DNA of 64,000 nt from Chiloscyllium plagiosum. Lineage: Eukaryota. Under the pieces are notes generated by a model. The model saw nothing but the letters and a program-made list of their open reading frames with translations, made no database searches and was not told the origin of the DNA. The first letter of the stretch is position 1, and every line of letters starts with the position of its first letter. Location: contig NC_057718.1 of assembly GCF_004010195.1 (NCBI RefSeq), positions 59,948,137-60,012,136 on the forward strand, in the 5' to 3' direction. Shown piece by piece: positions 17,636 to 64,000 of this stretch. The translations under genes and the position numbers were made by a program.

Positions 17636-18627
17636 AAAACATAGACTCAGTTGTATTGTTATTATGGGCCGTGCTTGTAAATATTTGATTGACTACATGG
17701 GTTATTGGTAATAGTTAAAAAAAATGAAGAAATATCACAGTAATTTTGGTGGTGGGAAAGTCGCTCAGTTGCGTGTAATGGCAGCACTTCTGAGTTTAGG
17801 AAAGACAAAGCTGACTTGTATAATATGCAAAAAAATAACAGACTCCGTCTCCCTTCAACTCCATTTTGGTTTCCCATTCCCTCTTCACCTTTTGATGATT
17901 AGCCACTCAGGTGATTTACTGGTAATGGTTAATAGCTAAAAACAAAAATAACTGTCACAGTGACTTGTTGGTGGAGGAATGGTTCTGTTGTTTGCAATAA
18001 CACTTACAGGTACAAAAAAAATCAGAACTAAGGATGGGTCCACAGAATTCTATGTCCTGGACTGGGACTAGCCTATGTATGACAAGAGTAGTGACTCTAT
18101 TTTGGTGTTTAACATTAAAAAAAGTCGGCTTTCCTGAGAAATAATCAAGTCATTATTTCTTGATCAGCATTCCAAACACATAAGTTCAGTTCAACTGTAC
18201 ATATTCAACTCTTTAGTTCAAGTTTTTCCATTCTAAATTATATTATCCAAACTTACAACTGAAACTGTGAATGTAAATATGTAATGGTGTAATTTCACTT
18301 TCCTTTGAGTGACAATACTGCTGTGCTTAATATTTGGATTGCTAAGCTTCTTAAATTACACTTTAGTGAATTTTCTGTGGTTCAGCCAACTCAATTTCAG
18401 TTTCCCAAATTGCTATCAATATTGTTATTGAACTGTTGATTTTGATATTATTATGTAAAACAGGGACAGAACGTATGACTTGAAAATGAGCACTGAATTA
18501 TGTTCAACATGAAGAGGCAAAACAAAACGTCCTCTTGGCAAATAAGTGACTGAGGTGTTATTGGGGGAGCACTTTGACCAATGACCCATAATTCTATTAG
18601 TTTTAAAGTAGTTATGGTACATTTTAG

Positions 18628-18791
18628 TTGAGAGTCTCTCCACCCCCGAGGCTCCCAGCCTTATTCCTGATGAAGGGTTCCAGCCTGAAACGTCAATTTT
18701 CCTGCTCCTCAGATGCGGCCTGACCTGCTGTACTTTTCCAGCAACACACTCTCAACTCTGATCTCCAGCATCTGCAGACCTCACTGTCTCC
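18628..18791 (+). mobile_element. PLE family B pLTR mini-insertion with hammerhead
   Basis: CUGAUGA 18667-18673 and GAAACGUC 18687-18694; direct repeats tatggtacattttag (18613-18627) / tatagtacatcttag (18792-18806). Confidence 0.85.
18663..18698 (+). ncRNA. Minimal hammerhead ribozyme, catalytic core intact
   Basis: CUGAUGA-a-GGGU-ucca-GCCU-GAAAC-GUC; stem II pairs with two G-U wobbles. Confidence 0.75.
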
Positions 18792-18809
18792 TATAGTACA
18801 TCTTAGGCC

Positions 18810-20879
18810 TGGTCCACAAGTTAAAGTTTGAAATTAGCGCAAAGCCAATTTTGATGGTATTGGACAGGAACTTTCAAAGTTACTTGAGGGAGGCTGTTTG
18901 CAGGTGGGAGGCTTTCAAAAGAACGATAACGAGAGTTCAGAAGTAGCATGTTCCTGTTAGAGTGAAGGGTAACACTGACAGGGATAGGGAACACTGGATG
19001 ACTGGAGATACTGAGGTTCTCTTCAAGAAAAAGAAGGAGGCATATGTCAGGTATAGACAGCTGGATCAAGTGAATTCCTTGAGGTGTACTGGGGTATAGG
19101 AGTATCCGTAAGAGGCTAATCAGGAGACCAAAAAGGAGACATGAGATGGCTTTGGCAGATAAGGTTAAGGAGAATACAAAGAGATAAAGATATACTAATA
19201 TATTAAGGGCAAAAGAGTAACAATATGGAGAATAGGGTCCCTGAGAGATTAAGGAGATATCTGTGTGGAACCGCAGGAAATGGGTGAGATCCTAAATGAA
19301 TATTTTATGTCAATATTTACTCTGGAGAAAGACATGCAACCTAGGAAAATTGTGGAAATGAAGAGTGATATCTTGAAAAGAGTTCACATTACAGAGGGGG
19401 TGTGCTGGGTGTTTAAAATGAATAAAGGTAGAAAAATCTCTGGGACCTGATCAGGTGTATCCCAGAATATTGTAGGAAACTAGGGAAGAGATTGCAGGGC
19501 CTCTAATAGAGTTATTTGTACCTTCAACAGCCACGAGTGAGGTGCCAGAAGACTAGAGGGTGACTAATGTTGAGCCATTATTTAAGAAAGGCTGAAAGGA
19601 AAAGCCAGGAAACGATGTACCGGTAAGCATGATGTCAACTGTGGGTAAGTTGTTGGAGGGGATTCTGAGAGATAGGGTGTACATGCATTTGGAAAGGCAA
19701 GGACTGAATAGGGATTGTCAACATAGTTTTGTGTGTGGGAAACCATGGCTCACAAACTTGATTAAGGTTTTTGAAGAGGTGACCAACAAGATAGATGAAG
19801 GCACAGCTGTAAACATTGACTATGTGGATGTTATCAAGGACTCTGATAAGGTTCTGCATGGTAGACTGATTAGTAAGGTTAGATCACATGGAATCCAGGA
19901 AGAGCTAACCAACTGGATACAAAATTGGCTTGACAGTAGGAGACAGAGGGTGATGGTAGATTAGTGTTTTCAGATTGGAGGCTGGTGACCAGCTGTGTGC
20001 TGCAAAGATTGATGCTGGATCCATTGTTGTTCTTCATTTATTTGAACAATTTAGAGGAAAATATATGAGGCATGGTTAGCAAGTTTGTGGATGTCACTAA
20101 AACTGGACAGTGAAGAAGGTTATCTATGAGTACAGTGATAAGACAAACCAGGGAAGGACATACACAGTTAATGGTAGGGTGTGGGGAGTATTGTTGAGCA
20201 GAGAGACCTGAGAGTACAGGTACACGGTCCCTTGAAAAGCAGGGTGTTGAAGAAGACATTTGGCATGCTTGCCATCATTGACCTGAGCATTGAATACAAG
20301 AGTTTGGATATCATGTTACAGCTGTACAAGACATTGATGAGGGCCACATTTTGAGTACTGCATACAATTCTGATCGTCCTGCTATAGGAAGGATGTTATT
20401 AAACTGGAAAGGGTGTAACAAGATTTACAAGGATGTTACCAAGACTGGAGGGTTTGAGTTATAAGTAGACACTGGATAGGCTAGGGTTTTTTCCCCTGGA
20501 GCTTCGGAGGATAAGGGGTGACTTTATAGAGGTTTATAAAATCATGAGGGGCATGGAGAGTGTAAATAGCCAAGGTTGTTTCCTCAGGGTAGGGGAGGTT
20601 CAAAACTAGAAGGCATAGATTTAAGGTGAGAAGAGAAAGATTTAAAAGGGACCTGAGGGGCAACATTCTCGCAGAAAGGATGGTACGTAGGTGGAATGAG
20701 CTGTCAGAGGAAGTGGTGCAGATGAGTGCAATTACAACATTTAAAAGACATTTGGACAGATGCATGCCTAAGAAATGTTTGTAGGGATATGGGCCAAATA
20801 CAGGCAAATGGGACTAGTTCAAGTTAGGAAACCTGGTTGGCATGGGCTGAAGGGTCTATTCCTATGCTGTATGACTCTA
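18810..20879 (+). mobile_element. CR1 (HER1-like) LINE, ~2 kb decayed ORF2 + 3' end
   Basis: EMGEILNEYF; STVGKLLEGILRD...LTNLIKVFEEVT...DKVLHGRLISK; ctatgctgtatgactcta tail. Confidence 0.93.
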
Positions 20880-24362: not shown

Positions 24363-25062
24363 TGTCCACACCTCCCCCCTCACCTCCATCCAAGGCCCCA
24401 AAGGATCATTCCACATCCGACAGAGGTTTTCCTGCACATCCAAACACCTCATCTATTTTGTCCATTGCTCTTGATGTGGTCTCCTCTACTTTAGGAGATA
24501 GGACTCTAACTCATGGAACATTTCAGAAAATATCCCTAGGTCACACTCAACAAATAACCCTAGCACTCTGCAGCTGACCACTTCAACTCCTCTGCCCAAT
24601 CCCACTCTGCCAAGGACATGCACATCCTGGGCCTCCATAACCGCCAAATCCTAGCCACTCAATGCTTGAAAGAAGAACACCTTATCTTCTACTTAGGACC
24701 CTCCAACCATATGGCATCAACTTTAATTTCACCAGTTTCCTCATCTCCCCTCCCCACCACCTCATCCCAGATCCAACACTCCAACTTGGTACCACCCTCT
24801 TGGACTGTCCCACCTGTCCATCTTCCTTCCCATCTATCTGCTCCGCCCTCTGCTCCAACCTATCACCATCACCCATTACCTACATCTACATATTGCCTTC
24901 CCAGCTACTTTTCCCCCGGCCCCATCCCCACCTCCTATCTATCTCTCAGCCCCACCCCCCCGACATTCCTGATGAAGGGCTTATGTCTGAAACATTTATT
25001 CTCCTGCTCCTCGGATGCTGCCTGACCTGCTGTGTTTTTCCAGTGCCACGCTTTCTGACTAT
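24363..25062 (+). mobile_element. Penelope-like element (family B): GIY-YIG + pLTR
   Basis: ccaaggccccaaaggatcattccacatc...; MHILGLH...LKEEHLIFYL; TLQPYGINFNFTSF; hammerhead-like CUGAUGA at 24969-24975. Confidence 0.88.
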
Positions 25063-25149
25063 TTTTAAATGAGACTCCACTTTCTTCTGACAGAACAGTC
25101 TGCAGTAAACCTTAATGTTAGTTTCTCTCACTATCAATTTGGATATATG

Positions 25150-25800: not shown

Positions 25801-25884
25801 TAAGAAATTCACAACCAAAGTTGTTTGATGGGTAATTATCACATAGACAAGATATAATTCCTTGATATTCTAGATGTTTCTTCT

Positions 25885-29415: not shown

Positions 29416-29444
29416 ACCTTTTCTGTTGCAGATATTGTATATCA

Positions 29445-29690: not shown

Positions 29691-30691
29691 GGGTTACGAT
29701 TAGGGTAAGGCTGGTGCCTACTGGAGTTACCCAGCTATGAATACATACCATGACAAATGTCAGAGACTATATGTCTGTTAATGTCAGTCTCTTAAATTAA
29801 AATAGGTGTGGTGTTAACAGGTCAACACACAGCTCACGTGTCAGACATTTTTACATTGGTCGGATAGAATCTTGTTATTGAGATTATAGTAATCCTGTAA
29901 GATGCAGTCACTGAAAAAGACAGAGTTCAACCCATGTGAAAGGTATATTAACTAGTGTCTGGAGTTTGGACCCTACCAAACACTATCACAAAAGGATCCC
30001 ATGATATTTTGTGGTAAGAAAAGTGGGAGGTGGAATTCACATTACAAGTTTTAATAAGTTAGCTAATGAGTCTAGGAATCCTTGAAATTGCACAGTGCTA
30101 TGTTGCAAGTGAGACAAGGAAATAATTGGATAAGTAGTCGAAAAGCAGGAACCAACAAGTTAGGTAAACCCATAAGGAAACCAACAATCTAGATAATGTG
30201 AGGAAGACTAACACCAACGCAGAATTGTACAGCAAACTGCTGGTCTCTTCATCCTTGCAGGGAAATCAATGCCATATGTAAATACTGGAGATAGACCATT
30301 GTTTAGACACCTCTTGGAAAGAATCCAATGACCAGAGCAAGCCCTTGCAGGAAAATGTTGATCTAGCCTGCCTCAAAATTGAAGACATATTTAATATGGT
30401 TCTCATTGGAAAAAAAGCTACCAAAGAGTGAAGACTATATATTAAAAATTGTCAGATCATATAAGTGTTAGGAAAGCTTAAGGCTACTACTTTTGTAACA
30501 GGAATCTAGTTTCAGATCTCCGTGTCTTCATCCTTATCCTAGGGGTAGGTCTGCTGGCTAACTAAGGAAATCAAGATCACATGTTATGTACACTTAAAAT
30601 AAGGTTGAAATGTCTCTAAGTGAATGTTGGGCTGGGAATGTTGCTATTGCTTTTCAGAGTAAACAAACCAGTGGCTTTCCAAAATTCAATG

Positions 30692-31299
30692 CTCCCTCCG
30701 CGACTCCCTTGTCAGGTCCACACCCCCCCCACCAACCCAACCTCCACTCCCGACACCTTCCCCTGCAACCGCAAGAAATGCAAAACTTGCGCCCACATCT
30801 CCCCCCTCACTTCCCTCCAAGGCCCCAAGGGATCCTTCCATATCCACCACAAATTCACCTGCACCTCCACACACATCATTTACTGCATCCGCTGCACCCG
30901 ATGTGGCCTCCTCTACATTGGGGAGACAGGCCGCCTNNNNNNNNNNNNNNNNNNNNNNNNNNNNNNNNNNNNNNNNNNNNNNNNNNNNNNNNNNNNNNNN
31001 NNNNNNNNNNNNNNNNNNNNNNNNNNNNNNNNNNNNNNNNNNNNNNNNNNNNNNNNNNNNNNNNNNNNCTCCGCCCCCACTCCCTCTCCGGCCTATCACC
31101 CTCACCTTAACCTCCTTCCACCTATCGCATTCCCAACGCCCCTCCCCCAAGTCCCTCCTCCCTACCTTTTATCTTAGCCTGCTTGGCACACCTTCCTCAT
31201 TCCTGAAGAAGGGTTATGCCCGAAAAGTCGATTCTCCTATTCCTTAGATGCTGCCTGACCTGCTGTGCTTTTCCAGCAACACATTTTTCAGCTCTGATC
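30692..31299 (+). mobile_element. Young Penelope-like element (family B) spanning the assembly gap
   Basis: Intact GIY-YIG motif CNRKKCKTC...IIYCIRCTRCGLLYIGETGR; pLTR with CUGAAGA at 31203-31209 and GAAAAGUC. Confidence 0.93.
30937..31068. other. Assembly gap (132 N)
   Basis: Run of n characters. Confidence 1.
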
Positions 31300-33100: not shown

Positions 33101-33759
33101 AACTTTTGATAAACTTTCTACCCATTGATCTTTTGGAACATCTTCAACTATCCTGGAAAAGGAATATCTTCGTTCATGTTTATGAAGACACCATATTCTT
33201 AGGGAAAAATAAAACTTTATATTGAAACTGCATTTTCAAAAGCCTGAATTAGTAAAGTACACAATATAGCAACAAAATGAGTATAGCACAAGAAGATTAA
33301 TGTCCTAATAATCATCTTCCAAATCAAGATAACACTCAATCATTTTAAGTGCCAATGCAACAACATTCATTGGTAGCAATTCTTCCACAGATCCTTTAGA
33401 TTTCTAATACCCTTAGCTCCTTCATCTAGATTGTTAATGTATAATGTGAATATTTGTAGTCCCCTGTGGAACTCCACTAGTTACCAGCTGAAAAAAAATC
33501 TTTTTATCCCCACTCCCTGCTTTCTGCCAGTCAACCAATCCCCTATCCATGATCAATTCTGTCAACATGATTTACATGAAACTCAATATACTACAGATTT
33601 ATAGGTAGTGCACTTTTGTACTCTAGTCAGTAACTTAGCAGTAAACAAAAGCCAAAGTTATAATGTTGTTTGGCTCAAATGTTACTTGGTCCTAAGCATC
33701 TGTGATTAGAGTTTTAATTTAAGTTTTGATTGTCATGGGCATGCTGGAACTATTCTTTC

Positions 33760-33893
33760 CATTCCTGATGAAGAGCTTATGCTCAAAACGTCAACTCTCC
33801 TGCTCCTTGGATGCTGCCTGACCAGCTGTGCTTTTGCAGTGCCACACGTTTAGACTCTGATCTCCAACATCTGCAGTCGTCACTCTCTGCTCC
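33760..33893 (+). mobile_element. PLE family B pLTR mini-insertion with hammerhead motif
   Basis: CUGAUGA 33765-33771; stem II GAGC/GCUC; [A]AAACGUC; flanked by ctattctttccat / ctgttcttcccat. Confidence 0.85.
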
Positions 33894-34121
33894 CTGTTCT
33901 TCCCATGGGTCAAGCACTGCTCATAATGTGTTGGAATTGTTGAATTATATTGATTCAGGTGCATGTACATGAGCTTAATGGTGCAAAGATATAAAATAAG
34001 GGTGCATCACTAAGGGTTAGCATCAGGCACAGTATATTTAGGATAGGGCATTTGTCAAGAGATTGAGGTTGTAATGGGTATGTGCTTGGAAATCAGAATT
34101 GCTTAGGATATTACCAGTCAG

Positions 34122-34710: not shown

Positions 34711-34739
34711 ATCAAGAAATGTAGAAGTACAGGGAAAAC

Positions 34740-35770: not shown

Positions 35771-37739
35771 AGGATATGCTTTTTCCTATGTTTTAGGCTA
35801 ACACTGCTGCAGCATATTAGATACTTCTCGACAGTATCTCTGTGCTATGGGTGTCTGCACATATACTATTAACAGTAGCTGGCTTTACTAGATTATCAGT
35901 TCTTTTGGCCTCTCACATCCCAAGTTAATCCTTACCCTAGAGTAAGGATCTTTCCCTCCGTCATGATTGTTACACTCTTCAGTTATCTCTATTCACTATA
36001 CGATACTGAATATGGCTCGCTAATATAGCATCTAAGACCTCCTCTTTATGAGCTTCATTTAATCTCTGCTCCAATCTCTTCTTCTGATCTGATCAGCTGA
36101 TGTCAGAGTAACATCATCAGTTACATATACATAATTTGCATGTTCAATTTTAAGTAGTAGATTTTATGTTTTGGATTTATGCAGAAATGATACTATATGT
36201 AACTGCTATTACTTACTGTACATTTAAAATGCTCTAGCTCTGGTTTCTAACTCTTTCTACAGTTTTGTTTACTTTCTCAGAATTTACACTCAGGATAAAG
36301 CAAACAATTGCAGTGACCATCAATAGTTCACATTCTAATATAATCAAATGCTGCAGGCACGATTTTCTTCTTGGGACTTGGTGAGGAAGATGGTTGGAAG
36401 GGCAACTAATTGGATAAGTTGACTCAGGAAAAATACTCAATTAATGACCAGTTAAGGGCTTCAGCTCACTGTTTACTTGATTATCTACCTTATTTACCAG
36501 GCAAGAAAAGAGGTCAGTTGCCCAACAGCAAAGCCAAAGGTGATATGCTGCATTTTGGGGAGTGGGGGTGGTGGGGTAGCTTCATTTGCCCTAACAACAG
36601 GACAGTCTTCCAGGTATATCATAATGCATTGCTACTGCTCAAGCTCAGAAACCTGGAACTTGTGTTGCTCTAGTGCTAACATTTCCCACACATGTTCCTG
36701 TACTGAAACAAGTAGTATCCTGAAGTTCCCACATAGAAGAAAATGCATATTTCATATGACTGCCTGTGAGACATCTATTCATTCGCTAGTGTTTAGTTGA
36801 TAAAAATAGCAATCTGCTAAAGGAAGATCTCCCAAATTGAATGATTATTGTAACAAGCTAACGTGATTGTACATCTATGACATATGCCAAAATCCACTGA
36901 TGACAAAAATTAAGTGAAGTTTCTACTTTTAGAAAATTTGCCTGAACTCTTGTCTATTGTAAACATTGGATAAATTTCCTTTGTTCAATGTCTTGTTGAG
37001 CTGTGTAAGACGAATGCATATTCTAATAAACTCATTCAATTTGGGTACAATAATGGTGGCCCAAGACCAATTGGCTGGTGTGCCAACATGGAAATATGCC
37101 CATTCCAATCACTTACTTGAGTTGCTTCTGGACTTGATTCATTATGGGATGCAGATTTCCTGAATATGTGCAGACATAATAGCTTAGTAACCTTCATTAA
37201 CTTGATGCTATATTAGACATTGAACTTTTCTAATCCTATGAACAATTTCAGATAACACTGCTCAAGGAAAATATTACACCCATGCTGTTTAACATCTTCA
37301 AGCTTATAAAGAAGGTGGAGGACAAGAGTGAGGCTTCCTGATTTTGAATTACATATAAATTCTCTATATCTGACATTCAGAGCTGCTTGAAGCATATATT
37401 TAATTATGAGTGTTGTGCTACCTGGACCTTGTACTTTCAACTCTATTGGCTCTGACATCTGTCTTCAGCCATCATATTTGATCTGATGAGATAGTCACAG
37501 TTTCTCCTGTATCAAATTGATGTTTATTGACATATGCTTGTTTTGTCAAATTCAAGTAACTTGAATAATGGGAATGCATGGGGTATTTTTTTCTAATTAA
37601 TTTGGTTTGGTCACATTTGTATCATTGTATATATAAGAATATGATTGCTTTCTGCTCTGGGTCCCACTATCCTCTGGAAGTGATCTATAATTTTCGAGCT
37701 GTAGCACTCTTTGTCTCTACTGGGCACTACTTGTGCAGA

Positions 37740-37823
37740 GCCGAAAATGTGTTGCAGCAGGTCAGGCAGCATCCAAGGAGCAGGAGAATCGACGTTTCGG
37801 GCATGAGCCCTTCTTCAGGAATG
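37740..37823 (-). mobile_element. 84-bp PLE family B mini-insertion (hammerhead + tail only)
   Basis: Direct repeats actacttgtgcaga (37726-37739) / actacttgcgcaga (37824-37837). Confidence 0.9.
37787..37822 (-). ncRNA. Minimal type-I hammerhead ribozyme, best-preserved copy
   Basis: Minus: auuc-CUGAAGA-a-GGGC-ucau-GCCC-GAAAC-GUC-gauu; all core nucleotides present, 4-bp stem II, palindromic ACGU. Confidence 0.85.
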
Positions 37824-38739
37824 ACTACTTGCGCAGATGAGGCTTTTTTCCTACATAGCACAATTACTGACTTACCACCTGCTGTTTGTTTTACTCTTTG
37901 TGTTGGCTTATCATGTGTCTCATTTGAGTGTTTTTATCTTATAGAGTTCTGTTGCTCTCTGATTAGATTATCCTTCTACCTTCAAGGATTCATCTCTGAA
38001 TCATTCTGGTTTCTGTTTCCAGCACAATCTGAATAGCTTTCTCCAATGTCAAATTGTCTTTGGACTGTAATAAATGTGACAAAATCTGATAATCTTCAAT
38101 AATTCCAACAATTCTGTCCCTGATGAGTTCTGATTCCAAAGCTCCATAGCCACTGGTTATCCATAAGTGGTAGAGACCCTTAATTAATGGAATTACTGAA
38201 CTCTTGACTTAAATGTTGCTTCTTGAAGAATTCTATTTGTTCTCAGATCAAAGTAATGTCAAAATGTAGTAGAGCTTTTTCAGATGTATCTATGCTGTTT
38301 TTTATGTGTTGATGATTTACAATATAATCAACTGAAGATATTGAATACAGTATATATTTATTAGTTTATTATTATTTATGTTTGAAGAAATTCTGTATTT
38401 TAAGAACTATATTTTTTCTCTGATACCCAATACTATAATATTTCTCCTGTTTATGTCTTCCTAATGAGATTATTTATTCTTATTACTTTGATAGTCTTAA
38501 ATTCTGCAAATCTCACTCCTGTTATAATATATTTCCTTTGAAGACTTTTACTACTGTAAATAGCAGTACAGTTTTGTGTTCCTTGTTTAAAAAATGAATT
38601 GTAAATCAGCATTGTATTCCTACTTTTAAAGCATTTAGTGATTTTGAATAGTAATGCTCTATAACTACTGTTAACTGGATGTTTTTCATTGACTTTGTGT
38701 TCAAAGTGGAAGTTTCTCCCTTGTGCTGTCAAAATGAAA

Positions 38740-39292: not shown

Positions 39293-39859
39293 AAAAACCC
39301 ATAGGCTCAGGTAGACTGGCCTCTGGCAACTTTCCCAGATCAGACAGAGATAATGGAGAATTAAATTCTCCTGAGGAAAGTTGGAGAGAAAAGGAGAGTG
39401 AGACAGGTAAAACAGAAATGTCGCTGACTTTTAAAAGAAGGGAACCAAATGAGAAGCAGAAGGGAAACCTGTCTAAGTGCTTCCAAGTGGAATGCCAGGC
39501 CATTTAGAAAATTATTGGTTCAGAGATTCTACAGAGAATTTAGCTGCCTAAAACATATTTGTGGCATTAAAGTTGGTGTCTGTTCAGGCATGACTGATGA
39601 CCAGGCTAGCTTCCATGAGTTTGTTTTCAAAAGAAGGGTGATCAACAATTACATTAAACAGTCAAGAGAGAGACAAATTAGCATTTTCTGAGATATTAAG
39701 CACTCATAAACTTTGCTGGTTGGGGGTAGGGAATATTTTCCATTTGAAAGCAAGTTAAATTCCACTGTGCTGATAAAAGGGCTTAGTGCTATAACTAGTT
39801 GGGTAATGATTGCATCCTTCGCATTGAAGATCCCAAAAGTAATGTAAATACACATTAAA

Positions 39860-39992
39860 TAAAAGCAAACAACTACAGATGCTGGAGATCCGAAGTATGA
39901 ACAGGAAATGCTGATGAAACTCAGCAGGTCTGACAGCATTTCTAGGAGAAACAGTTAACATTTCCAGTCCATAGTGACTCTTCTTCTGACTT
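39860..39992 (-). mobile_element. Old PLE pLTR (family E) with decayed hammerhead
   Basis: cagatgctggagatc...ctcagcaggtctgacagcat...gttaacatttccagtcc.tagtgactcttcttc. Confidence 0.7.
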
Positions 39993-40090
39993 CAGTTTCT
40001 GGTCATATTGAAAGTATACATGCATACTCATACATCCAACATACACTCACACTCCCTCACAGGGCGAACCATCATAGTGACTAACTGAAA

Positions 40091-40245
40091 GAAATAAAAG
40101 CACATTACTGCAGATGCTGGATATCTGAAACCAAAAGCGGCTTTGACAAAGAGTCAGTTAGACTCGAAACGTCAGCTCTTTTCTCTCCTTACAGATGCTG
40201 CCAGACCTGCTGAGATTTTCCAGCATTTTCTCTTTTGGTTTTGAA
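40091..40245 (+). mobile_element. PLE pLTR (family E) mini-insertion, inverted 5' piece + hammerhead motif
   Basis: [U]UGAC[A]A-a-GAGUC-aguua-GACUC-GAAAC-GUC at 40143-40173; taactgaaa repeated at 40082-40090 and 40246-40254. Confidence 0.8.
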
Positions 40246-41304
40246 TAACTGAAAAGACTGTTTGCTTAAAGTTGAAGCTGTTTTGTGTTTAGGGCCAACT
40301 GTGTGTGCCAACCACTGATAGGAATTCAAACTCAGCACAAAACATCTAATATTTTTGGCAGTGTTGGAGGAGCAATCAATGTCCATTGCATTAAATTCTA
40401 GGGTGAAACATTAGAGACAATTTGACCAATTTGGGGATTTGATTACTCAAGCCTGGTTGACGATATTGCTGAAATGTTCAACTATTTTTACAAGCTCACA
40501 ATGGCTGGAGAATGCTGATGAATAGACAGATAAATTTTCATTTGTATTATTGTGGAGGCACATTCAGCAGAAGAGCTGCTCATAACTCAACATGAGTACT
40601 GTTACCTCCTTCCTTGGATCTACCTTATTTTTACGTATGCATTCCAGTACACCAGTTATTTGGTGGCAGTTTCTGGGACAAAACCAATTTTCTGGCCCTT
40701 ACACACTGCTAAAGTTTTTCAGGTATGCCATATAAACCTCTGATCAATGTAAGAGTTAAATTGTCATCTGATATTCAGTCAGAGAATGAACTCCATGAAA
40801 TGGAGCACAGGCAACTCCAATGTCACTAGAATTTAAAACTGTACATGCTGTTTGGGTTTTCTTTAGAAAGATCAGTAGTTTGAAGTAATTTTCCAAATGA
40901 AGTATGATCAATTACTTCATGTGTATTTGTTAGTGAAATCAATAGCACTCCTTAAAACAAGCAGCCCTTTCAAAAGTTGAGTCCTGGTTTTATGGTCTTA
41001 AGGTCTTCTTATTTTTCCAAAATCAAAATAATTCACCTTTCAGTTAGTAAACATTAGTTGGTTTTTGACTGGCAGAACAAAATATCTCGGGAAAGATGCA
41101 ATAAAAATACAAAATGGAGCTGCAATATTAGTAGTGTCTTCATTATTACTAAATCCATTAAATAATATTTGTGGACGCAATGGTATAATTAATTTAAAAT
41201 TATGAAACTACTTTTTATGCTTATGGGTGCTTAGATTGAGAAGAGTAGCTACACTTAAAAGCAACAGAAATAGCTCTAATGTTGATCATTTGAAGTAGAA
41301 ATTA

Positions 41305-41699: not shown

Positions 41700-42660
41700 G
41701 TGCACAGTGGATGCTAATTGGTTGGCAAGTGAACTCCAATTGGTAGAGGTTTTTCCATGGGGAATGTACCAGTTAGATAAATTTAATCCAGGTTAAATTT
41801 AAACCCAGAGATTGACTGATTGTCATGAGGAATGAACCATGTCGTACAAGACAATTAGGACCTGAAAGGGTGAACTGATATCATGGGTAAGCTCCGCCAA
41901 TAAGGATATAAAAGTTATCAGAGTATAGGTTGTTACCTATTTTTGTTACACTGAAACAGATGGAATGTATACATGTATGCTTTCTGTCTGCAAAGACCGG
42001 GACCCTCTGATTTCATATAAAAACAGAATTTGCTGAAGAACCTCTAGCAGGTCTGGCAGCATCTGGGAAGAAAAAGTAGAGCTAACACTTTGAGTCCAGT
42101 GACCTTTCTTCAGTGTGGGTAATTTTATATACGCAGCTTCCAGTACATGCAAGTGCACAACAGGATAAGCCCAACTGACCACCTTAAATTGATAGCTAGA
42201 TTCTTTTGAGTTTTGCAAGCACAGGTTGATTGAGTCTGATTAATACTTGAACTGCTGCAAATAGCAGAAGGGGTATGTTGTTTGCAAGGGTCTCATCTTT
42301 GGGACGTATGACCTATATATGTAGAGTCATAACAGCACTGAAATTCACATACCACATTATTGATTGTGTGATAGGCACAACATGTTTTGGTTTGATGGTG
42401 GTATTCTTTTAAGAGTGACTGCCACTCATGTTGCTACTGCACCATAGCAGTTTCACTTATTGCTCAAATCTCTGAGACTCATTGCAAGGTAAGGTAGACT
42501 GGACACTTTTCAGGTTTTACATGGTGGTCTTTTCATGAATGTGTATCATATACAGTGAGAAATGAGTTGACCCAGGGTAGCCACTTGCTACCAAGAAGGT
42601 TTTGATGTATCCTATTTCAGGATCAAATTTTCACCATGAGAAAATGGCTCAGTCCCAATT
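41700..42660 (-). mobile_element. Old Penelope-like element (family F): linker + GIY-YIG + 3' UTR
   Basis: Minus: EIGYIKTFLVASGYP, PEKCPVYL, NNVVCEFQCCYDSTYIGHTSQR, FKVVSWAYPVVHLHVLEAAYIK, GPGLCRQK; interrupted at ~42015-42115. Confidence 0.8.
42015..42115 (-). mobile_element. PLE pLTR (family E) nested in the family F element
   Basis: Minus CUGAAGA-aaggucacuggacuc-AAAGUGUU followed by gatgctgccagacctgct tail. Confidence 0.7.
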
Positions 42661-54160: not shown

Positions 54161-54377
54161 GGTCGGAATGTGATCGGAAGGCACAGAGACATTTGGGCGG
54201 CACGGTGGCACAGTGGTTAGCACTGTTTGAGTGTATCAGATTATTGAGGATAGCCAGGGAGATAAATTCACATAAGGTTTTCATGACAGTGCCTCACAGC
54301 CGCATGTCCTACAGCCAATCAGCCAATCAGACATAATGATAGACCAGATCTGGCAATATGACAGGAGTAACTAATGG

Positions 54378-54517
54378 GAGAAAGTGAGGACTGCAGATGC
54401 TGGAGAGTTCTGAGTTGAAAAGTGTGGCACTGGGAAAGCACAGCAGCTCAGGCAGCATCCGAGGAACTGGAGAGTCAATGTTTCGGGCATAAGCCTTTCA
54501 TCAGAAATTCCTGATGT
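54378..54517 (-). mobile_element. PLE family B pLTR mini-insertion with hammerhead motif
   Basis: Minus CUGAUGA-aAGGC-uuau-GCCC-GAAACAUU; direct repeats aggagtaactaatgg (54363-54377) / aggagtaattaatgg (54518-54532); junction catcagaaa|ttcctgatg is a short inversion. Confidence 0.88.
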
Positions 54518-54569
54518 AGGAGTAATTAATGGCCTTACAGTAAAAGCCCTCCTACGTAGCACATATCTC

Positions 54570-56762
54570 ACTATGGTTTCAGTTTGAGTGAGAGAAAAGG
54601 GGATCAAATATAAATATTTTACATTTAAGGAAGAGAATTTATGAGGGAAGGAAGACAGGGCTATGAAAAGTGAACTGGGATGATCGATTAAGGGGTAGAT
54701 CAGGAGAAATACAGCAGCAGGCAGTTAAGGAGATATTTCAGAATACTCAGAAAATGTGCATTCCAGTGAAAACAAAAGATTTTAACCATAAAAAAACCTA
54801 AAGGTTTCAACAGGAATTTAGAAAGGGGAATAGAAAATAAAGTAAGCCTAGCTCTTCTGGAGATTCATTCTGGGAACTTTGAATGCAAAATAGAAAAAAA
54901 CTGATTAATTGAACTGATATTTTGCATCACTCTTCACTGTAGACGATACCGGTAACAGCCCAGAGAAATTGTGAATCAGAATTAGATTTTTTTTTTGAAT
55001 TAGATTACTTACAGTGTGGAAACAGGCCCTTCAGCCCAACAAGTCCACACCGACCCGCCGAAGCGCAACCCACCCATACCCCTACATTTACCCATTACCT
55101 AACACTACGGGCAATTTAGCATGGCCAATTCACCCGACCTGCACATCTTTGGACTGTGGGAGGAAACCGGAGCACCCGGAGGAAACCCACGCAGACACAG
55201 GGAGAACATCAAACTCCACACAGTCAGTCGCCTGAGGTGGGAATTGAACCCAGGTCTCTGGCACTGTGAGGCAGCAGTGCTAACCACTGTGCCACCGTGC
55301 CACCCAATGTAAAAGGGAACGAGGAACTTGAAACAACTGTAATCACCAAAGAAAAGAATGCTGAGAAAATTGAGAACTAAAGCTTGACAAGTCCTCTAAT
55401 CTAGATAGACTTTATTCTAAGCTGTTAACAGAAATAGCTGCTGAGATACTGGTTGGTTTAAATTTTCCAAAATTTCATAGATTCTGGTAAAGTGCCATCA
55501 AATTGCAAAATAAGGAAAGTAATTCCTTAATTCAAGATAGCAGTGAAGTAGAAAGCAGAAAATTATAGACCAACATCTTTCGTTGGAATAATGATGGAAT
55601 CTATTATTAGGGAGGTTTTATAAAGCATTTAAAAAAGCTTAATGCAATTAAATAGAGTCAACATGCTTTGATGAAAAGAGAATCGTGTTTCGCTAATTTA
55701 TTGTTATTTGAGGGAGGAACAAGCAACATAGACAATGTGGAAGTAATAGATGGACTGCACAGAGAATTCGAAAAGGCATTTGCCAAGGTACCCTATCCAA
55801 AGTTTTTTTGCTAAATAAGAGCTCATGGCTTAAAAAGATTATATTAGTATTGGTAAAGGCTAAAAGGTAGCACAGCATGCATATAAATGGATAATTTTTA
55901 GCTGACAGGTTATTAGGAATAGTTTACCACCGTGATCAGCATGGAGGTTTTGACCTTTTATAAATTAGATTAATGACTTCAATGAAGGGGCCAAATGGTC
56001 ACTTAATTTACTGATGATAGATAGGAGAGTAAGTTATGAAGGGAACAGGAGAAGTCTTCTAAGTCAACAAAGTGCACAAAACTTTGAAGTATAATGTCAG
56101 AATATGTATGCTTGTAATGGAAAAGCAGTATATTATGTAAATGTAGACAGATTGCAAAAGTGTGAGGTACAAAGGGATCTGGATCTGGAATCACAAAAAG
56201 TTAGTGAGCAGTGATTCGGAAGGCAAGTGAAATGTTGTCATTTATTACAAGAGAAATGAAATATAAAAGTAGGGAAATTTTCCTCAAGCTTCAGAAAAAG
56301 TTGTTTAGACCACATCTGGGGTACTATGTAGAGTTTTGGGCCCCTTTATTTAGGAAGGATATCATCAACTAATACCTGGATGTCTGGGTTCATTTATGAC
56401 AAAAAAAAAGACAAGTTGAGCCTATGCATTGTAGGTGAGAAAAATGAGAGGTGATCTTGTTGAAACATATAAAATCCTGAGTAGGCTTGAAGGATAGATG
56501 CTGTGAAGATGTTTCCTCTTCTGGGAGAGACAAGGACTAGGGGACACAGCTTAAATATTATCGGGTCTCATGTTTAAGATTGGGATGAGGAGGAATTATT
56601 TTCTCTCAAGGTCATTAATCCTTGAAATTCTCTTTCCCAGTGATTGTATGAGGCATGTGGTCATTGAACACTTTTAAGATAGAGGTAAATAGATTCTTCA
56701 TGAACATATGAGCCAAAGGTTATCAGGGCTAGGTTGGAATGTGAATTTGGGGCCACAATTAG
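54570..56762 (+). mobile_element. Old CR1 ORF2 + 3' end, interrupted by an HE1 SINE
   Basis: Decayed YFASLFT, DSGKVP, NYRP, KAFAKVP, RPHLGYYVEFWAP and RGDLVETYKIL motifs. Confidence 0.8.
54998..55305 (-). mobile_element. Young HE1-type V-SINE
   Basis: Minus gggtggcacggtggcacagtggttagcactgctgcctcacag...gggttcaattccc; CpGs retained. Confidence 0.95.
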
Positions 56763-56763
56763 A

Positions 56764-57962
56764 TAGAGTCATAGAATCATACAGATGTACAGCATGAAAA
56801 CAAACCCTTCAGTCCAACTTGTCCATGCCAACCAGATATCCCAACCTAATCTAGTCCAATTTGCGAGCACTTGGCCCATTTCCTTCTAACCCCTTCCTAT
56901 TCATATACCCATCTAGATACCTTTTAAATGCTGTAATTGTACCAGCCTCCACCACTTCCTCTAGTAGCTCATTCCATACACGCAGCACCCTCTAAGTGAA
57001 AATGTTGCCCCTTAGGTCCCTTTTATATCTTTCCCTTCTCACCCTAAATCTATGCCCTCTAGTTCTGAACTCCCCCACCACAGGGACAAGACTTTGTCTA
57101 TGTATCCTATCCATGCTCTTCATGATTTTATAAACCTCTATAAGGTCACCCCTCTGCCTCCATCGCTCCAGGTAAAACAGCCCCAGCCTATTCAGCCTCT
57201 CTCTATAGCTCAAATCCTCCAACCCTGGCAACATCCTTGTAAATCTTTTCTGAACCCTTTCAAGTTACACAACATCCCTCTAATAGGAAGGAGACCAGAA
57301 TTGCATGCAATATTCCAACTGTGGCCTAACCAATGTCCTGTGCAGCTGCAACATGGCCTCCCAACTCCTAAATTCAATACTCTGACCAATAAAGGAAAGA
57401 TTACCAAACACTTTCTTCACTATCCTATCTACCTGCAACTCCGATTTCAAGGAACTATGAGCCTGCACTCCAAGGTCTCTTTGTTCAGCAACACTCCCCA
57501 GGACCTTATCATTTAGTGAATAAGTCTTGCTCTGATTTGCTTTCCTAAAATGCAGCACCTCGCATTTATCTAAATTAAATGCCATTTGCCACATCTCCGT
57601 CCGTTGGCCCATCTGATCATGATCATGTTGTAATCAGGAGGTAACCTTCTTTGCTGCCCAATACACTTCCAATTTTGGTGTCATTTGCAAACTTACTAAC
57701 TATACCTCCTATGTTCACATCCAAATGATATGTATAAATGTTGAAAAGCAGTGGACCCAGCACCGATCCTTGTGGCATTCCACTGGATATAGACCTCCAG
57801 TCTGAAAAGCAACCCTCCACCACTCCCCTGTGTCTTCTACCTTTGAGCCAGTTCTGCCTCCAAATAGCTGGTTATCCCTGTATTCCGTGAGATCTAACCT
57901 TGCTAACCAGTCTCCCATGAGGAATTGTGTCGAATCGCCTTACTGAAGTCCATGTAGATCAC
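56764..57962 (-). mobile_element. CR1 (HER1-like) RT + 3' end
   Basis: GMPQGSVLGPLLF...KFANDTK; LVRPQLEYCMQFWSP; RLGLFYLE. Confidence 0.95.
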
Positions 57963-58164
57963 GTTGTATCTGTCCAAATGTTTTTCAACTGTTGCAACTG
58001 TACTTACCTCTGGCAGCTGGTTCCATATACGGACCACCTTCTGTGTGAAAAGGTTGTCCCTCAACTGCCATGATTTTATTTTACCTGCTCGAGCAGACTC
58101 AAGGGGTGAAGGGCCTCTCATGCACATAATATGCATGTTTATACATAAAAGACAATACCTTATT

Positions 58165-58620
58165 TAGAATCCTTACATTGCAGATAGAAGCCATTTAGCC
58201 CATTGAGTGTGCACCGGCCCTCCAAAGAACATCCTGCTCAGACCTCCGTAACTATCCCTGCATTAACCATAGCTAATCCAACCACCTGCACACTGCAGGG
58301 CAATTTAGCATGGCCAATTCACCTAGCTTGCACATCTCTGGACTGTGGGAGGAGACTAGAGAACAGGACGGAAACCCATACAGACACTGAGAGCACATGC
58401 AAACTTCACACAGTCACCCAAACCAGACCCAGAATCTCTCCCAGGTTTGCTCTTAAAAAGGTAGTAGTGAGCTACCTTCTTGAACCATGAAACGTCAATT
58501 CTCCTTCTCCTTTGATGCTGCCTGACCTGCTGCGCTTTTCCAGCAACACATTTTTAAGTCCTGGAATCAAACCTGGATCCCTGACAATGTGAGGCAGCAG
58601 TGCTAACCACAGTGCCACTG
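58165..58620 (-). mobile_element. HE1-type SINE containing a chimeric insert (~58420-58558)
   Basis: V domain at 58298-58420; tRNA head resumes at ~58560 (ctggaatcaaacc...gaggcagcagtgctaaccac). Confidence 0.8.
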
Positions 58621-58764
58621 GGCTCACTTTTTACTCAGGCAGGGATGATATTTCTCAAGGAACAAATGTATTCATTTATCTGCTGTTTGTGGAATTTTTC
58701 TTTGCTCAAATTAACTCTGATGTTTGTAAAACAGTAACAGTGACTTGAATTTAACTGTAACTGA

Positions 58765-59390: not shown

Positions 59391-60077
59391 AAATAGTGCT
59401 TCATAAATGCAAATATTATTTATTCTTATCCACCTAATATTCCTTGTTGAAATGAAACTGTCAACCAAATCCCCCTATTTGAGCAGTTCTCCTCTACAGT
59501 CCACTTAAAGAATGCACTTCTTTCCTCATTTCTTCTCACCTGTCACTTTGGTGAGAATTGATTACCTCAAATGGCTGCGTCCTTATGATCTACCTACAGG
59601 GCTCCATTTTTGACCTCCTATTCTTTATCAGTTACACTCATCAGAATACTGTGCCTCACGTGTTCTACCACATGAAGGTCTGTACACACTAGGCCTTGAT
59701 AGTCCATTGTCCCCGAGAATCAATTTTGGTTTGCTATGGCCTTGTTTCACCTTATTCTTTCAATTGCTCGAAACATATTATCCATTTTGCACATGCCTCC
59801 ATTCATTGCAGACCAGCTTATCCCTATTTACCTCTATTATTTGGCGCTTCTTTTTTAATGCAATTCCCTCTGGAATTTCGTTCCAACTGATACATTTTGC
59901 TACCTTCAACTTTGCTTTCAAAAGCCTCTTAAGACCCTTTTCTTTGGCATGCTTTTGTCAGGTTACTGCAGTGCACCTTATACATGATACATTCTGCTGC
60001 CACACTGTGTTTTTGGTAGAGCAAGTAAATGTTGAATGGAATGGATTAGTTGCCAATTAAGCAGGCTGATTTGCACT

Positions 60078-60493
60078 GGAGGTTGAGTAGGTTAGGCTTG
60101 TTTTCATTAGAAAAAAGGAGATTGAGGGGGGACCTGATTGAGGTTTACAAAATCATGAAGGGTATAGACAGGGTGGATAGAGACAAGCTTTTTCCCAGGG
60201 TGAAGGATTCAATAACGAGAGGTCATGCTTTCAAGGTGAGAGGTGGAAAGTTTAAGGGGGATACACGTGGCAAGTACTTCACACAGAGGGTGGTGAGTGT
60301 TTGGAACGCGTTGCCAGCAGAGATGGTAGAGGCAGGCACGGTAGATTCATTTAAGATGCATCTGGACAGATGCATGAGTAGGTGGGGAGCAGAGGGATAC
60401 AAATGCTTAAACAGTACATTTGGATCAGCTCAGGCTTGGAGGGCCGAAGGGCCTGTTCCTGGGCTGTAAATTTTCTTTGTTCTCTCTTTGTTC
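60078..60493 (+). mobile_element. Young CR1 3' fragment with (ttctttg)-type tail
   Basis: Uninterrupted RLSRLGLFSLEKRRLRGDLIEVYKIMKG...FTQRVVSVWNALP; gggccgaagggcctgttcc stem-loop. Confidence 0.93.
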
Positions 60494-61307: not shown

Positions 61308-61481
61308 CAGAAATTGGTGGCAAAACTCAGCAGTTTTGGAAGCATCTGTGGGAATGAAACAGACTCCGGTGAACTTGAAATTTTCTGATGAAAAGTCACC
61401 GAATTCGAAACGTTAACTCTGCTTTCTTCTCACAGATGCTGCCAGACCTGCTGAGTTTCGCCAGCAATTTCTGTTTTTGTT
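61308..61481. mobile_element. PLE pLTR (family E) inverted pair with hammerhead motif
   Basis: 61308-61363 is the reverse complement of 61418-61473; CUGAUGA at 61385-61391 and GAAACGUU at 61407-61414. Confidence 0.82.
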
Positions 61482-63689
61482 ATAATAACTATTTGCTTTG
61501 TTTCTAAACCAAATTTTTGTAGAGAGTTTTATAGCACAGCTGTAGGGTACAAGTTGCCAATAGCAATTAGGTGATCTTATCCAGAATCATTGTACAGTAA
61601 CAAACCAATGGCGTGAATCTGATCGTGGAACAATATCTGTACCATGCTGTTTCTCTCCATGTACTGCCACCATAATTCACAGCACATGACAGAGATTTTA
61701 TTTGTGATCAAGCTAGCCCAATTTACATCTTGTTTAATTTGTGTTACTTATAAGAAAAAAACTAATGAAGATGTAAAGATACACAAGAAGCAGCTTCAGC
61801 AAGTGCCATGCTCACTGTGTTACCCTCTGGTAATCAGTAATTTACCCACCTTGGTGCCAAGTATTCCTCAGCTGGCACTGTTATCTGTCAAAGTTCTGTG
61901 TGAGAAGGTGAGTCACTGACATCATTTGGTGAAAGGAGGCTGAAATGTAGCAGAATATGATTGAGTTTATGAAAGAATCAAAGTCAAGGGATTGATGGAA
62001 AAATGTGTTTCTAGACAGATCAGTTTAACTCATTTGTTTTACATTTCTGACCTAGGCCTCATGAATAATTACAGCTGCTTGTAACAATTAATGAGGTGAA
62101 CTCTTTTAGCTTTAAGTGTCAATATATCTTAACTGGTCCTTCTTTTAAAAAATCGCAAATGCACTCCCTTGATGAGTGAGTTAGTAAACACATCAAATCA
62201 TGGAGAATTGGAATATTGAAGAGTGAATTAGTGACCTTTGCTGAGCCGAGGCATCAGTCAAGGCCCTATGGTTGGCCTCTGCTCTGGGTTTAAGAGGGAG
62301 AAAAGAACACAGTTATTGCTGGAAAGCATATGGTGTCGATATCAGGTGAGTTCAAGCTTAGTTGACATTTACGGTCTTGACTTATTTATAGTCACTTTTG
62401 TGACATGGTTGAGGGGACAGCATGCATGGAACCACATTCCCAGAACAACCTGCATTTCGGGAGAAGGTGGTAGAACATTAGAAGTCGAAAATAGCAAATG
62501 CTTAATATCATCGTAATTGAGAGTACTTAATTCTGTTTGGTATTAGTTCTCCTTCCCACCTATACTCATGGAGGTGCTGATTCAGGTAGAGGTGCATTTC
62601 CATAGGTCATAGGGAAGTATCTCGCCTAGCTGATCTTTCTGAGAATACAAGCCTCGATTTTGATCGCCAGCAGCTATTTACCATAGAGAGCATCACAGGG
62701 AGCACAAACCAAACATTCATTACAAGCAGATACTTGGCACAGGAATCACTGAAAAAATATTCAGAACTGGGAACTATCACTGATTCATTTTCATTCTCTT
62801 GCAGCACAAAATGACTTTAAGACATTTTTAAAATAGTGAAGAAAGAATGTCCTCAATCAAAGCAATGCAATAATTACAATAGTATTGAAATCAGGCACAG
62901 TAATGGAGTAATATCTAATCTCACATAACTGTTGCTGCATGGCAAGCTATTCTTAACTAATCATCCATTTAAAAATGCAATATTTAATGGAAATATTAAT
63001 TACCTGGTTATGTAAAGGAAATCCTTCAACTTACTAGGTTAATAATATAATCACATTATTAATCAATTCACAGCCAAATTCTTTCTCAAAAGGCAGTAGT
63101 CTTTAAAAGTAACACAAATCACTATAATAATGCAATAACCCGAGTGGATGAAATGCATCCAAAAATATTGAAAGAAACTAGAGAGAAGAAAGTGGAGACA
63201 TTCACACCCAGATATCAACATTATCACTGCAAAAGAACTAGTAGACAGCTACAGTAATTCATAACATCAAGAAGAGGATTAGAACTAATTCAATGAAATG
63301 AACTTGCAGATGGAAATGTAGGATGGGTTTTTTTGACTCTCAGGCATGGTTGTCACCCAAACATGGCAAAAATAACAAGCTGCCTATGGACAGCAGTGGG
63401 ATGAGAACAGCAAAAGATTCATATCATATCCCCAGCAGGAATGATCACTGGCAGTCAATTAAGTGGATCAGGGCATTCCTAATCAATGTCAGTAAAGATA
63501 TTTAGTTGGGGAGTTAAAAAAAGTTATTAAACCTTTACTGCTTCACCTTGTGTTTTAATCTAATACTGCTCCAGCTGTATCTTTCCAATACACCGCTCTT
63601 GAGACTGCTTGCTCTTTATCTCTAGGAAGCCTCTTCAATGGCTGGTGTACTGTAATACTCTATGTATATCTGTACATAGTAGATTATTA

Positions 63690-63887
63690 TGATTATGGAG
63701 GTACCAGTGTTGGACCGGCCTAGACAAAGTCAGAAGTCACAAGATACTAGGTTATAGTCTAACAGGTTAATTTGAAATCACAAGCTGTTGGAGCATTGTT
63801 CCTGACAAAGGGGCTACACTCCGAAAATTTGTGATTTCAAATAAATCTGTTGGACTATAACCAGGTGTCATGTGATTTCTGACTGTG
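63690..63887. mobile_element. PLE family A inverted pLTR pair with decayed hammerhead
   Basis: agtcagaagtcacaaga..aggttatagtctaacagg..ttgaaatcacaa mirrored by ttgtgatttcaa..ctgttggactataacc..gtgatttctgact; gtagattat repeated at 63679-63687 and 63887-63895. Confidence 0.82.
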
Positions 63888-64000
63888 TAGATTATCAAAT
63901 ACAGCTCTTTAGTGTAGTGTCTAAAATCTCTCTGCTCACATGCACCTTCTAGAGTTGTGTCTTCTTGCTTACTGATATCAGAACATGTAATCAGTTGTAT

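What the first reader, a model, noticed from the sequence alone, without database searches (positions are those of the whole stretch)
18613..63895. Ribozyme-plus-tail mini-retroelements (85-200 bp) with TSDs and a clustered 5' boundary
Seen: short insertions made only of the hammerhead and the downstream pLTR tail are flanked by direct repeats: 18613/18792 (15 bp, 2 mismatches), 33750/33894 (13 bp, 2 mismatches), 37726/37824 (14 bp, 1 mismatch), 40082/40246 (9 bp), 43340/43507 (15 bp, perfect), 54363/54518 (15 bp, 1 mismatch) and 63679/63887 (9 bp). In most copies (33760, 37823, 39990, 40140, 42115, 43444, 54508, 61382, 63800) homology stops within roughly 1-6 nt upstream of CUGANGA, in three different families. 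Random 5' truncation would not predict this. Inference: either a defined small RNA starting at the ribozyme is retrotransposed as a SINE-like non-autonomous unit, or reverse transcription stops or switches template at the ribozyme fold. The copies keep the whole core, so they are not the 3' self-cleavage product.
Basis: partly seen in the sequence, partly recalled or inferred. Interest (0 to 1): 0.75.

Follow-up and report, generated by a model that had tools for sequence, protein, structure and literature searches.

The report
Penelope stubs ending at transcription start
These tiny, very common insertions are end-pieces of a known jumping-gene class (Penelope-like elements), and most of them stop at one spot just before the ribozyme, likely because that is where the element's RNA begins, which would explain how such stubs arise without a separate SINE.

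Summary
All seven direct repeats are at the stated places, and empty paralogous sites show true duplications. However, 40082, 43340 and 63679 are head-to-head two-arm insertions, and 18613 starts 33 nt upstream of the core.

In 1.6 Mb of arbitrarily chosen genome, 142 of 195 arms that reach the core stop between +9 and -10 (first base of CUGA = 0). The stop rate at -10..-1 is 16 times background and is not an alignment artefact. The pieces are ends of Penelope-like elements (family A: Neptune type). Short and long copies are intermixed, so there is no separate SINE lineage. In 63 of 68 foldbacks, one arm starts at each of the two known priming sites.

Best reading (0.55): the stop is the RNA's 5' end. 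It lies about 31 nt below a TATA box in several families and shifts with it. RNA start data are missing and a cap-G test was not significant. Earlier scan notes reported these foldbacks in this and other genomes and left the stop unexplained.

The parts
18613..18806 (+). Family-A insertion, 15-bp TSD (18613-18627, 18792-18806); arm 18635-18791 runs from -33 to the tail end; about 8-10 nt next to the left TSD are an inverted piece of the proximal end
   Evidence: empty paralogous site in 16 host-repeat copies
33750..33906 (+). Single-arm family-A stub, -5 to tail end, 13-bp TSD with 2 mismatches overlapping the arm start; core at 33765
37726..37837 (-). Single-arm family-A1 stub, about -5 to the proximal end (no tail), 14-bp TSD; core at 37818
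40082..40254 (+). Family-B foldback: inverted tail piece (about 40091-40138) joined to an arm starting at -3 (40140); variant core with U3/A8; 9-bp TSD
   Evidence: core variant described in PMC4209133
43340..43521 (.). Family-A1 foldback: minus arm 43444-43355 (-3 to proximal end) joined head to head to plus arm 43445-43506 (about +68 to tail end); perfect 15-bp TSD
54363..54532 (-). Family-A stub, -4 to tail end, with a 9-10-nt inverted copy of the core start at the 5' junction; 15-bp TSD
63679..63895 (.). Family-D foldback: inverted tailed arm (about 63688-63799) plus direct arm from 63800; 9-bp TSD
61308..61490 (.). Family-B2-like foldback (inverted arm 61308-61363, direct arm from about 61382); no TSD sought
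39857..39990 (-). Family-B2-like single arm starting at the core; no TSD sought
42005..42115 (-). Family-B2-like single arm starting at the core; no TSD sought
58489..58563 (+).
30598..31299 (+). Long 5'-truncated family-A1 copy: CX4CxxC linker and GIY-YIG remnant, 3' UTR, AT-rich patch about 31 nt above the proposed start A at 31199, core at 31203
24363..25063 (+). Long 5'-truncated family-A copy (endonuclease remnant, 3' UTR, core at 24969)
700..870 (+). Long family-D copy: TATA box at 708, proposed start A at 738 (30 nt below), core at 746, tail

Best explanation
These are end-stubs of Penelope-like retrotransposons (family A is Neptune-type) whose 5' ends pile up just before the hammerhead core, likely because reverse transcription primed 90-130 nt downstream runs off the 5' end of an RNA that is predicted to start there. 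SHOWN: the stubs belong to PLE families with RT and GIY-YIG remnants; ribozyme plus tail is also the 5' leader of the unit, with the ORF start about 40 nt after the tail; 3' ends fall at two sites (about +90 and +125); foldbacks pair one of each; the stop rate at -10..-1 is about 16 times background; a TATA box or AT-rich patch lies 30-33 nt above the stop. INFERRED: that spot is a Pol II start, and the hammerhead is the first structure of the RNA. The protein cuts the target with a 14-16-nt stagger and primes one cDNA from each DNA end, at the two internal start sites. Both cDNAs run off the RNA end. They are joined head to head by microhomology (foldback), or one alone is kept (single arm). 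Longer copies would come from read-through RNA, or from a jump of the short cDNA to the 3' copy of the same sequence.
For: Pile-up: 142 of 195 arms stop at +9..-10, and 94 stop at -10..-1 (16.1x, P 3e-77), with only 6 of 53 stopping at -11..-30. In simulation only 5 of 141 true upstream ends were miscalled into the zone.

Promoter spacing relative to the proposed start A: family B has TATAAATA (8/8) at -31 and -33 in 2 of 2 long copies. Family D has 7/8 matches at -30/-32 in 4 of 7, and 6/8 at -32 in 2 more (the seventh is a misfiled foldback). Family B2 has an A-rich TATA-like box near -31 in 4 long copies, read by eye. Family A has TTAT at -30..-32 in 57 of 75.

In D the box sits about 4 nt further from the core, and the stop moves with it: median -7 (n=14) vs -4 (n=91), Mann-Whitney p=0.012; four arms end exactly at -8. 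Two B foldbacks (L079, L222) are palindromes centred on -4..-1. The upstream flanks of 57 core-stopping single arms share no common leader. The tail runs on into the 5' UTR and ORF in L240 and L248 and in 39 further loci.

Two priming events: 63 of 68 classifiable family-A pairs (P 4e-14) and 19 of 21 family-D pairs are tailed plus untailed, and either arm can reach further (38 vs 19, 6 ties). The anole PLE protein primes at two internal sites on both strands and needs ORF-start RNA (PMC11167929). The start site lies within the pLTR in D. virilis (PMC2377424).
Against: No RNA start was seen. The one usable raw run shows no place where molecules begin, and its loose ends at -4 (42 of 495 reads) look like genomic foldback arms. 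The extra-G (cap) test is not significant in clean single arms (G 9: A 10 vs control 18: 34, p=0.41).

Family A, the largest, has no canonical TATA (best 5-6 of 8). The initiator-like motif (consensus recalled) is also constrained by helix I pairing. A first D-versus-A test that ignored D subfamilies showed no shift (p=0.81), and the positive test rests on 14 arms.

Copies that include the ORF start stop in the zone less often (6 of 16 vs 142 of 195, p=0.008). The simple model does not predict this; the sample is the top-scoring hits of one subfamily. Stops spread over about 20 nt, including 48 inside the core (0..+9).
Confidence: 0.55

Rival explanations
1. The RNA continues upstream, but the reverse transcriptase is blocked or falls off near -4 because of a bound protein or the ribozyme region.
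For: 53 of 195 arms pass the zone and then truncate at the background rate. Stops are spread over 20 nt. Copies that include the ORF start pass more often (10 of 16). The anole ribozyme folds only with the protein's help (PMC11167929), so a protein footprint there is plausible.
Against: The region folds no better than shuffles, and the 60 nt upstream of the stop fold weakly (-2.8 to -8.0 kcal/mol). A fold should stop the enzyme at its 3' edge (about +31), not its 5' edge (inference). The stop follows TATA spacing in D rather than helix I.
Confidence: 0.25
2. The stubs are an independent non-autonomous, SINE-like lineage that copies itself from short master copies.
For: About 138 family-A insertions per Mb, 191 of 212 of them 270 bp or shorter. 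One junction (-1 joined to +9) recurs 4 times. Non-autonomous PLE derivatives are proposed in 10.64898/2026.07.22.740005.
Against: Short and long arms are intermixed. Junctions are mostly unique, and the recurring one occurs in both polarities, as a microhomology hot spot would. Stubs lack the upstream TATA region. Some RNA may still come from truncated copies that keep the promoter; that route was not excluded.
Confidence: 0.1
3. The end is made by processing: nuclease cleavage of the RNA or cDNA, splicing, or resolution of a self-primed hairpin (self-priming on an antisense template was proposed in PMC3846280).
For: The family-A boundary reads ATT, the motif the anole endonuclease prefers. 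Palindromic junctions exist.
Against: The B, B2 and D boundaries have no ATT. There is no splice-acceptor AG at the boundary and no shared leader. A single hairpin cannot give arms that end at two different priming sites with either arm the longer. Ribozyme cleavage is predicted after +27, not at -4.
Confidence: 0.1

Closest known systems
Insertions of endonuclease-bearing Penelope-like elements with inverted pLTR and one-sided 30-40-bp tail (PMC3846280; PMC8557442)
   Same: 5' truncation, head-to-head inverted copy, tail at one end only, TSDs, palindromes at junctions; TATA and Inr-like motifs noted in a rotifer pLTR
   Different: Here most insertions are only 85-270 bp and their 5' ends cluster at one place; the passages read describe truncation as frequent or variable and mention no hot spot
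Anole Poseidon PAc, in vitro (PMC11167929)
   Same: Two internal reverse-transcription start sites that define the tail; both target strands cut and extended; ribozyme at the pLTR-ORF junction
   Different: Poseidon clade, ORF starts inside the ribozyme (here about 165 nt below the core); no strand difference in start site reported, whereas here each foldback pairs one site with the other; no 5' stop site reported in the text read
Drosophila virilis Penelope promoter (PMC2377424)
   Same: Transcription starts inside the pLTR, upstream of the ribozyme and tail
   Different: TATA-less internal promoter with an intron before the ribozyme; here an upstream TATA or AT-rich patch and no intron are predicted
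Non-LTR retrozymes (10.64898/2026.07.22.740005; PMC4209133 for the ribozyme)
   Same: Type I minimal hammerhead, related to PLE pLTRs, non-coding, dispersed monomers exist
   Different: Retrozymes are head-to-tail tandems thought to use circular RNA; these are single or head-to-head stubs that keep the intact core, with ends set by priming sites and not by the cleavage site
Minus-strand strong-stop DNA of LTR elements, and LINE-1 twin priming (both recalled, not from a call)
   Same: Short cDNA primed near the RNA 5' end that runs off it; priming from both target ends gives an inversion
   Different: Here priming is target-primed at two fixed internal sites, and the run-off product is integrated directly; strand transfer is only hypothesised

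Membership tests
EN+ Penelope-like element | Single ORF with RT followed by C-terminal GIY-YIG endonuclease | tested here: met
   L183 remnants: GIY-YIG E=9e-4 and RVT_1 E=0.027, both below Pfam cut-offs; order seen in translations; four window fragments gave no Pfam hit. Family A only
EN+ Penelope-like element | pLTR: 3' end repeated upstream of the ORF in partial tandems | tested here: met
   Tail runs into 5' UTR and ORF start in L240, L248 and 39 more loci
EN+ Penelope-like element | Optional 30-40-nt tail, inverted 5'-truncated copy, TSD | tested here: met
EN+ Penelope-like element | Minimal type I hammerhead in the pLTR | tested here: met
   Core boxes, helix II and short helix I read in the sequence in all families; no Rfam hit; cleavage not testable
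Neptune clade | CX2-5CxxC linker before the GIY-YIG motif (shared with Nematis; PMC8557442) | tested here: met
   CX4CxxC in window ORF 30620 and L183; family A only
Neptune clade | RT phylogeny with reference Neptune elements | not tested
   No reference PLE proteins were fetched; clades of families B, B2, C and D were not determined
SINE-like non-autonomous family | Own lineage, separate from the autonomous partner | tested here: not met
   Nearest-neighbour test p=0.88; 32 label changes for 36 long among 155 arms on a FastTree tree (no shuffle value); identical sequences shared
SINE-like non-autonomous family | Fixed unit with its own (Pol III) promoter | tested here: inconclusive
   Units vary at both ends and at junctions; no promoter-box search or assay was run
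Non-LTR retrozyme | Head-to-tail tandem units, each with a hammerhead | tested here: not met
   The seven window insertions are single or head-to-head; rare partial tandems exist elsewhere
Non-LTR retrozyme | Self-cleavage and circular RNA | not testable with these tools
   No suitable RNA data
Pol II core promoter at the boundary | TATA box about 30-31 nt above the start | tested here: inconclusive
   Met in B and D, TATA-like in B2, only an AT-rich patch in A
Pol II core promoter at the boundary | Capped RNA 5' ends at the site | not testable with these tools
   No start seen in one poly(A) single-cell run; cap-G trace not significant

The most novel reading that the evidence does not exclude
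Penelope-like elements make a strong-stop cDNA as LTR elements do. The protein binds the leader at the 5' end of its own mRNA, primes one cDNA from each cut target strand at the two tail sites, and both run off the capped end where the hammerhead begins. About 70% of events abort there and are integrated as stubs, and the rest continue by jumping to the 3' copy of the same repeat. Hundreds of thousands of stubs then record the start site of each family and explain pLTRs, tails and inverted ends with one mechanism.
Probability: 0.25. Interest if true: 0.78.

Novelty: new variant of a known kind. Interest (0 to 1): 0.5.

Why it matters
How Penelope-like elements transpose, and why they carry hammerheads, tails and inverted ends, is described as unresolved in the papers read. 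If the pile-up marks the RNA start, the ribozyme is the first structure of the transcript, and start sites can be read from genomes alone. The commonest product would be an abortive run-off cDNA. The pairing of one tailed and one untailed arm links genomic structure to the two start sites seen in vitro. These stubs number about 138 per Mb for family A alone (roughly 5 x 10^5 if uniform, an extrapolation), so repeat annotation that files them as SINEs or retrozymes would be wrong.

Tried and rejected
Alignment artefact from the C-rich upstream tract: rejected (simulation; the pile-up is also seen in family A1, whose upstream 30 nt are not C-runs).

Unknown subfamily upstream sequence: no shared flank at the boundary among 57 single arms. 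It did confound the first family-D count, which was redone with subfamily references.

Amplified composite foldback: junctions differ. Splice acceptor or common leader: not seen.

Extra G from the cap: 8 G vs 4 A at -5 (p=0.07). G looked enriched when foldbacks were pooled, but p=0.41 in clean single arms, so it is inconclusive.

Cleavage-site stop: 16 arms at +28..+30 (3.8x; 12 arms, 4.3x, at identity >=0.88). This fits cleavage after +27, but helix I microhomology at foldback junctions explains several, and a few B/C-family arms slipped into these bins. Left open.

RNA: no RNA holder listed. Run X21 laid 0 reads. X20 showed no start site. Contig runs cannot show starts.

Rfam gave 0 hits. 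Pfam on four window fragments gave 0 hits. The search was poorly aimed and unused. No related genome is offered for this window, so orthologous empty sites could not be checked; paralogous ones were used. Scan notes: none near the window, none with start-site wording.
Full report
Numbering: position 0 is the first base of the CUGANGA box. An 'arm' is one copy of the element end.

1. Observation. All seven direct repeats are present as described. The structures are more complex than stated. 43340, 40082, 63679 and 61382 consist of two arms joined head to head; 18613 starts at -33; 58489 starts at +20. Thirty genomic relatives of 43340 were printed (28 with the anchor found): the TSDs differ, the tail end is fixed, and the inner junctions and untailed ends vary.

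2. Identity. Long copies carry an ORF with RT and GIY-YIG remnants (weak Pfam hits) and a CX4CxxC linker, which marks Neptune/Nematis-type PLEs (PMC8557442). In L240 and L248 the tail continues into a 5' UTR and an ATG about 40 nt further on; 39 more loci show the same junction. Ribozyme plus tail is therefore both the 3' end of an element and the 5' leader of the next unit. Several families share the layout: A (four subfamilies), B, B2, C and D. Only A was tied to an ORF.

3. Unbiased test of the boundary. I took 160 stretches of 10 kb at arbitrary round positions on 41 contigs (1.6 Mb, 60,583 N). Of 341 family-A arms reaching +45, 27 were dropped for an edge or N upstream and 21 for identity below 0.8, leaving 293. 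Background stop rate is 0.0062 per nt. At -10..-1 it is 16.1 times higher (94 stops, P 3e-77), and 142 of the 195 arms that reach +9 end by -10. Only 6 of 53 survivors stop at -11..-30. The peak appears in A1, A2 and A4 (weaker in A3), in foldbacks and in single arms. With 240 simulated random truncations of 30 real long copies, 5 of 141 ends upstream of -15 were miscalled into the zone. In one raw RNA run the best-supported loose end upstream of the core lies at -4 (42 of 495 reads). The loose part resembles a foldback arm, so it confirms the genomic boundary and not a start site; only 1 of those 495 reads was 99% alike.

4. TSDs and two priming sites. 44 of 68 foldbacks and 16 of 144 single arms have a TSD (mode 14-16 bp; null 0 of 422). 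Widening the search gave 26 of 144 single arms (null 1 of 144); many others show 6-9-bp repeats by eye, which were not tested. Empty paralogous sites confirm duplication for 18613 and 16 of 60 sample events, one being a microsatellite. 3' ends fall near +90 and +125. Of 78 pairs, 10 had an unclassifiable arm; of the other 68, 63 pair a tailed with an untailed arm (P 4e-14). Family D gave 19 of 21. Either arm may reach further 5' (38 vs 19, 6 ties), which a single self-primed hairpin cannot produce. The two arms of a pair are more alike than same-family arms (0.886 vs 0.854; 35 of 48 above the median). This matches the two internal start sites and two-strand extension of the anole protein (PMC11167929).

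5. Not a separate SINE. Among 119 short and 36 long arms, the nearest neighbour of a long arm is long in 0.127 of cases against 0.228 +/- 0.086 in 500 shuffles (p=0.88). Three of five groups of identical 80-nt sequences mix short and long arms. One junction recurs four times, but in both polarities.

6. Why there? The ribozyme region folds no better than shuffles, and the stop is on its far side. The boundary base is an A in a pyrimidine-A context (initiator consensus recalled). Counting from that A, family B has a perfect TATA box at -31 and -33 (2 of 2 long copies), and family D has 7/8 matches at -30/-32 (4 of 7). B2 has an A-rich box near -31 (4 copies, by eye), and A has TTAT at -30..-32 in 57 of 75 long copies. 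In D the box lies about 4 nt further from the core, so the start model predicts -8 while helix I begins at -3. With subfamily references the D median is -7 (14 arms, four exactly at -8) against -4 in A (91 arms), p=0.012 (this used 264 records, including search-selected loci but not the 30 chosen for junction likeness). A cruder test that mixed D subfamilies showed no shift (p=0.81). B2 short arms end at -5..0 (9 of 11 arms).

7. Results against this reading. No RNA start was observed. The cap-G trace is not significant in clean single arms (p=0.41). Family A lacks a canonical TATA. Copies that include the ORF start stop in the zone in only 6 of 16 cases (p=0.008 against 142 of 195). That needs read-through RNA or a jump to the 3' repeat. 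Eight same-strand jumps or deletions were seen, five of them joining -6..+18 to upstream sequence, but seamless transfer cannot be seen in these data.

8. Mechanism. Most likely (0.55) the stubs are run-off cDNAs of an RNA that starts at the ribozyme, primed from both ends of a staggered cut at the two tail sites. The structure, counts and promoter spacing are shown. The start site, the run-off and any strand transfer are inferred. Rivals: enzyme block 0.25, independent SINE 0.10, processing 0.10.

9. Literature seen. PMC11167929: parts 1-2 of 4. PMC4209133: parts 1-2 of 4. 10.64898/2026.07.22.740005: parts 1-3 of 5. PMC2377424: parts 2-3 of 4. PMC8557442 and PMC3846280: passages only. No supplements were opened; Fig. 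S2 of PMC11167929 plots ends of genomic copies and may bear on novelty. Inverted pLTRs, one-sided tails, pLTR promoters and TATA/Inr-like motifs are in print. A 5' stop hot spot at the ribozyme or start site was not found in ten searches of an open-access library, which lacks most subscription papers. Strong-stop DNA, LINE-1 twin priming and cap-derived G are recalled. Earlier scan notes already describe the foldbacks and double priming in this and other genomes, and one calls the common stop unexplained; none matched start-site wording.

10. Verdict. Real, and a known kind of element. The new part is the measured, family-spanning stop and its fit to a promoter. Interest 0.5.

Noticed in passing
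L180:5408-5905; L259, L260, L263, L269, L272, L276, L278, L284, L285, L291: Partial tandems in subfamily A3 in which ORF-start sequence (about +270 to +350) is joined to -68..-78 of a second end. Ten of 18 junctions examined fall in that 10-nt band, often at short microhomologies; the unit of about 370 bp is near the mean retrozyme length reported for a cartilaginous fish (363 bp). Possibly a long-range jump hot spot or the birth of retrozyme-like tandems.
   Followed up: partly
sample arms starting at +28..+30: Small excess (16 arms, 3.8x) at the predicted hammerhead cleavage site; may be reverse-transcribed cleavage products or helix I microhomology.
   Followed up: partly
L236 (about 560-790 in element orientation): A stub foldback inserted into the ORF start of another copy of the same element group, apparently with a TSD.
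   Followed up: no
L240, L248, L233-L257: The family-A ORF has a long Thr/Pro-rich low-complexity stretch between its N-terminus and the RT, reminiscent of the low-complexity inserts reported in rotifer PLEs.
   Followed up: no
window 40143: Family B uses the U3/A8 covariant hammerhead core, described for Schistosoma PLEs.
   Followed up: no
window 6581-8115: Two long family-A fragments in opposite orientation (minus 7291-6616, plus 7621-8115): a larger inverted PLE insertion.
   Followed up: no
window 8124-9297, 19596-20845, 28602-29302, 56777-57935, 60050-60469: Fragments of an abundant LINE-like repeat (CR1-type by recalled peptide motifs).
   Followed up: no
window 9675-9980, 51694-52035, 55000-55300, 58164-58623: Dispersed SINE-like repeat of about 300 bp (family name not checked); the 58489 arm sits inside one copy.
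   Followed up: no
L182, L184, L188, L190, L191: Several long copies appear to lose homology near one upstream point (about position 1270 of these loci); not checked whether this is a second hot spot or a divergent patch.
   Followed up: no
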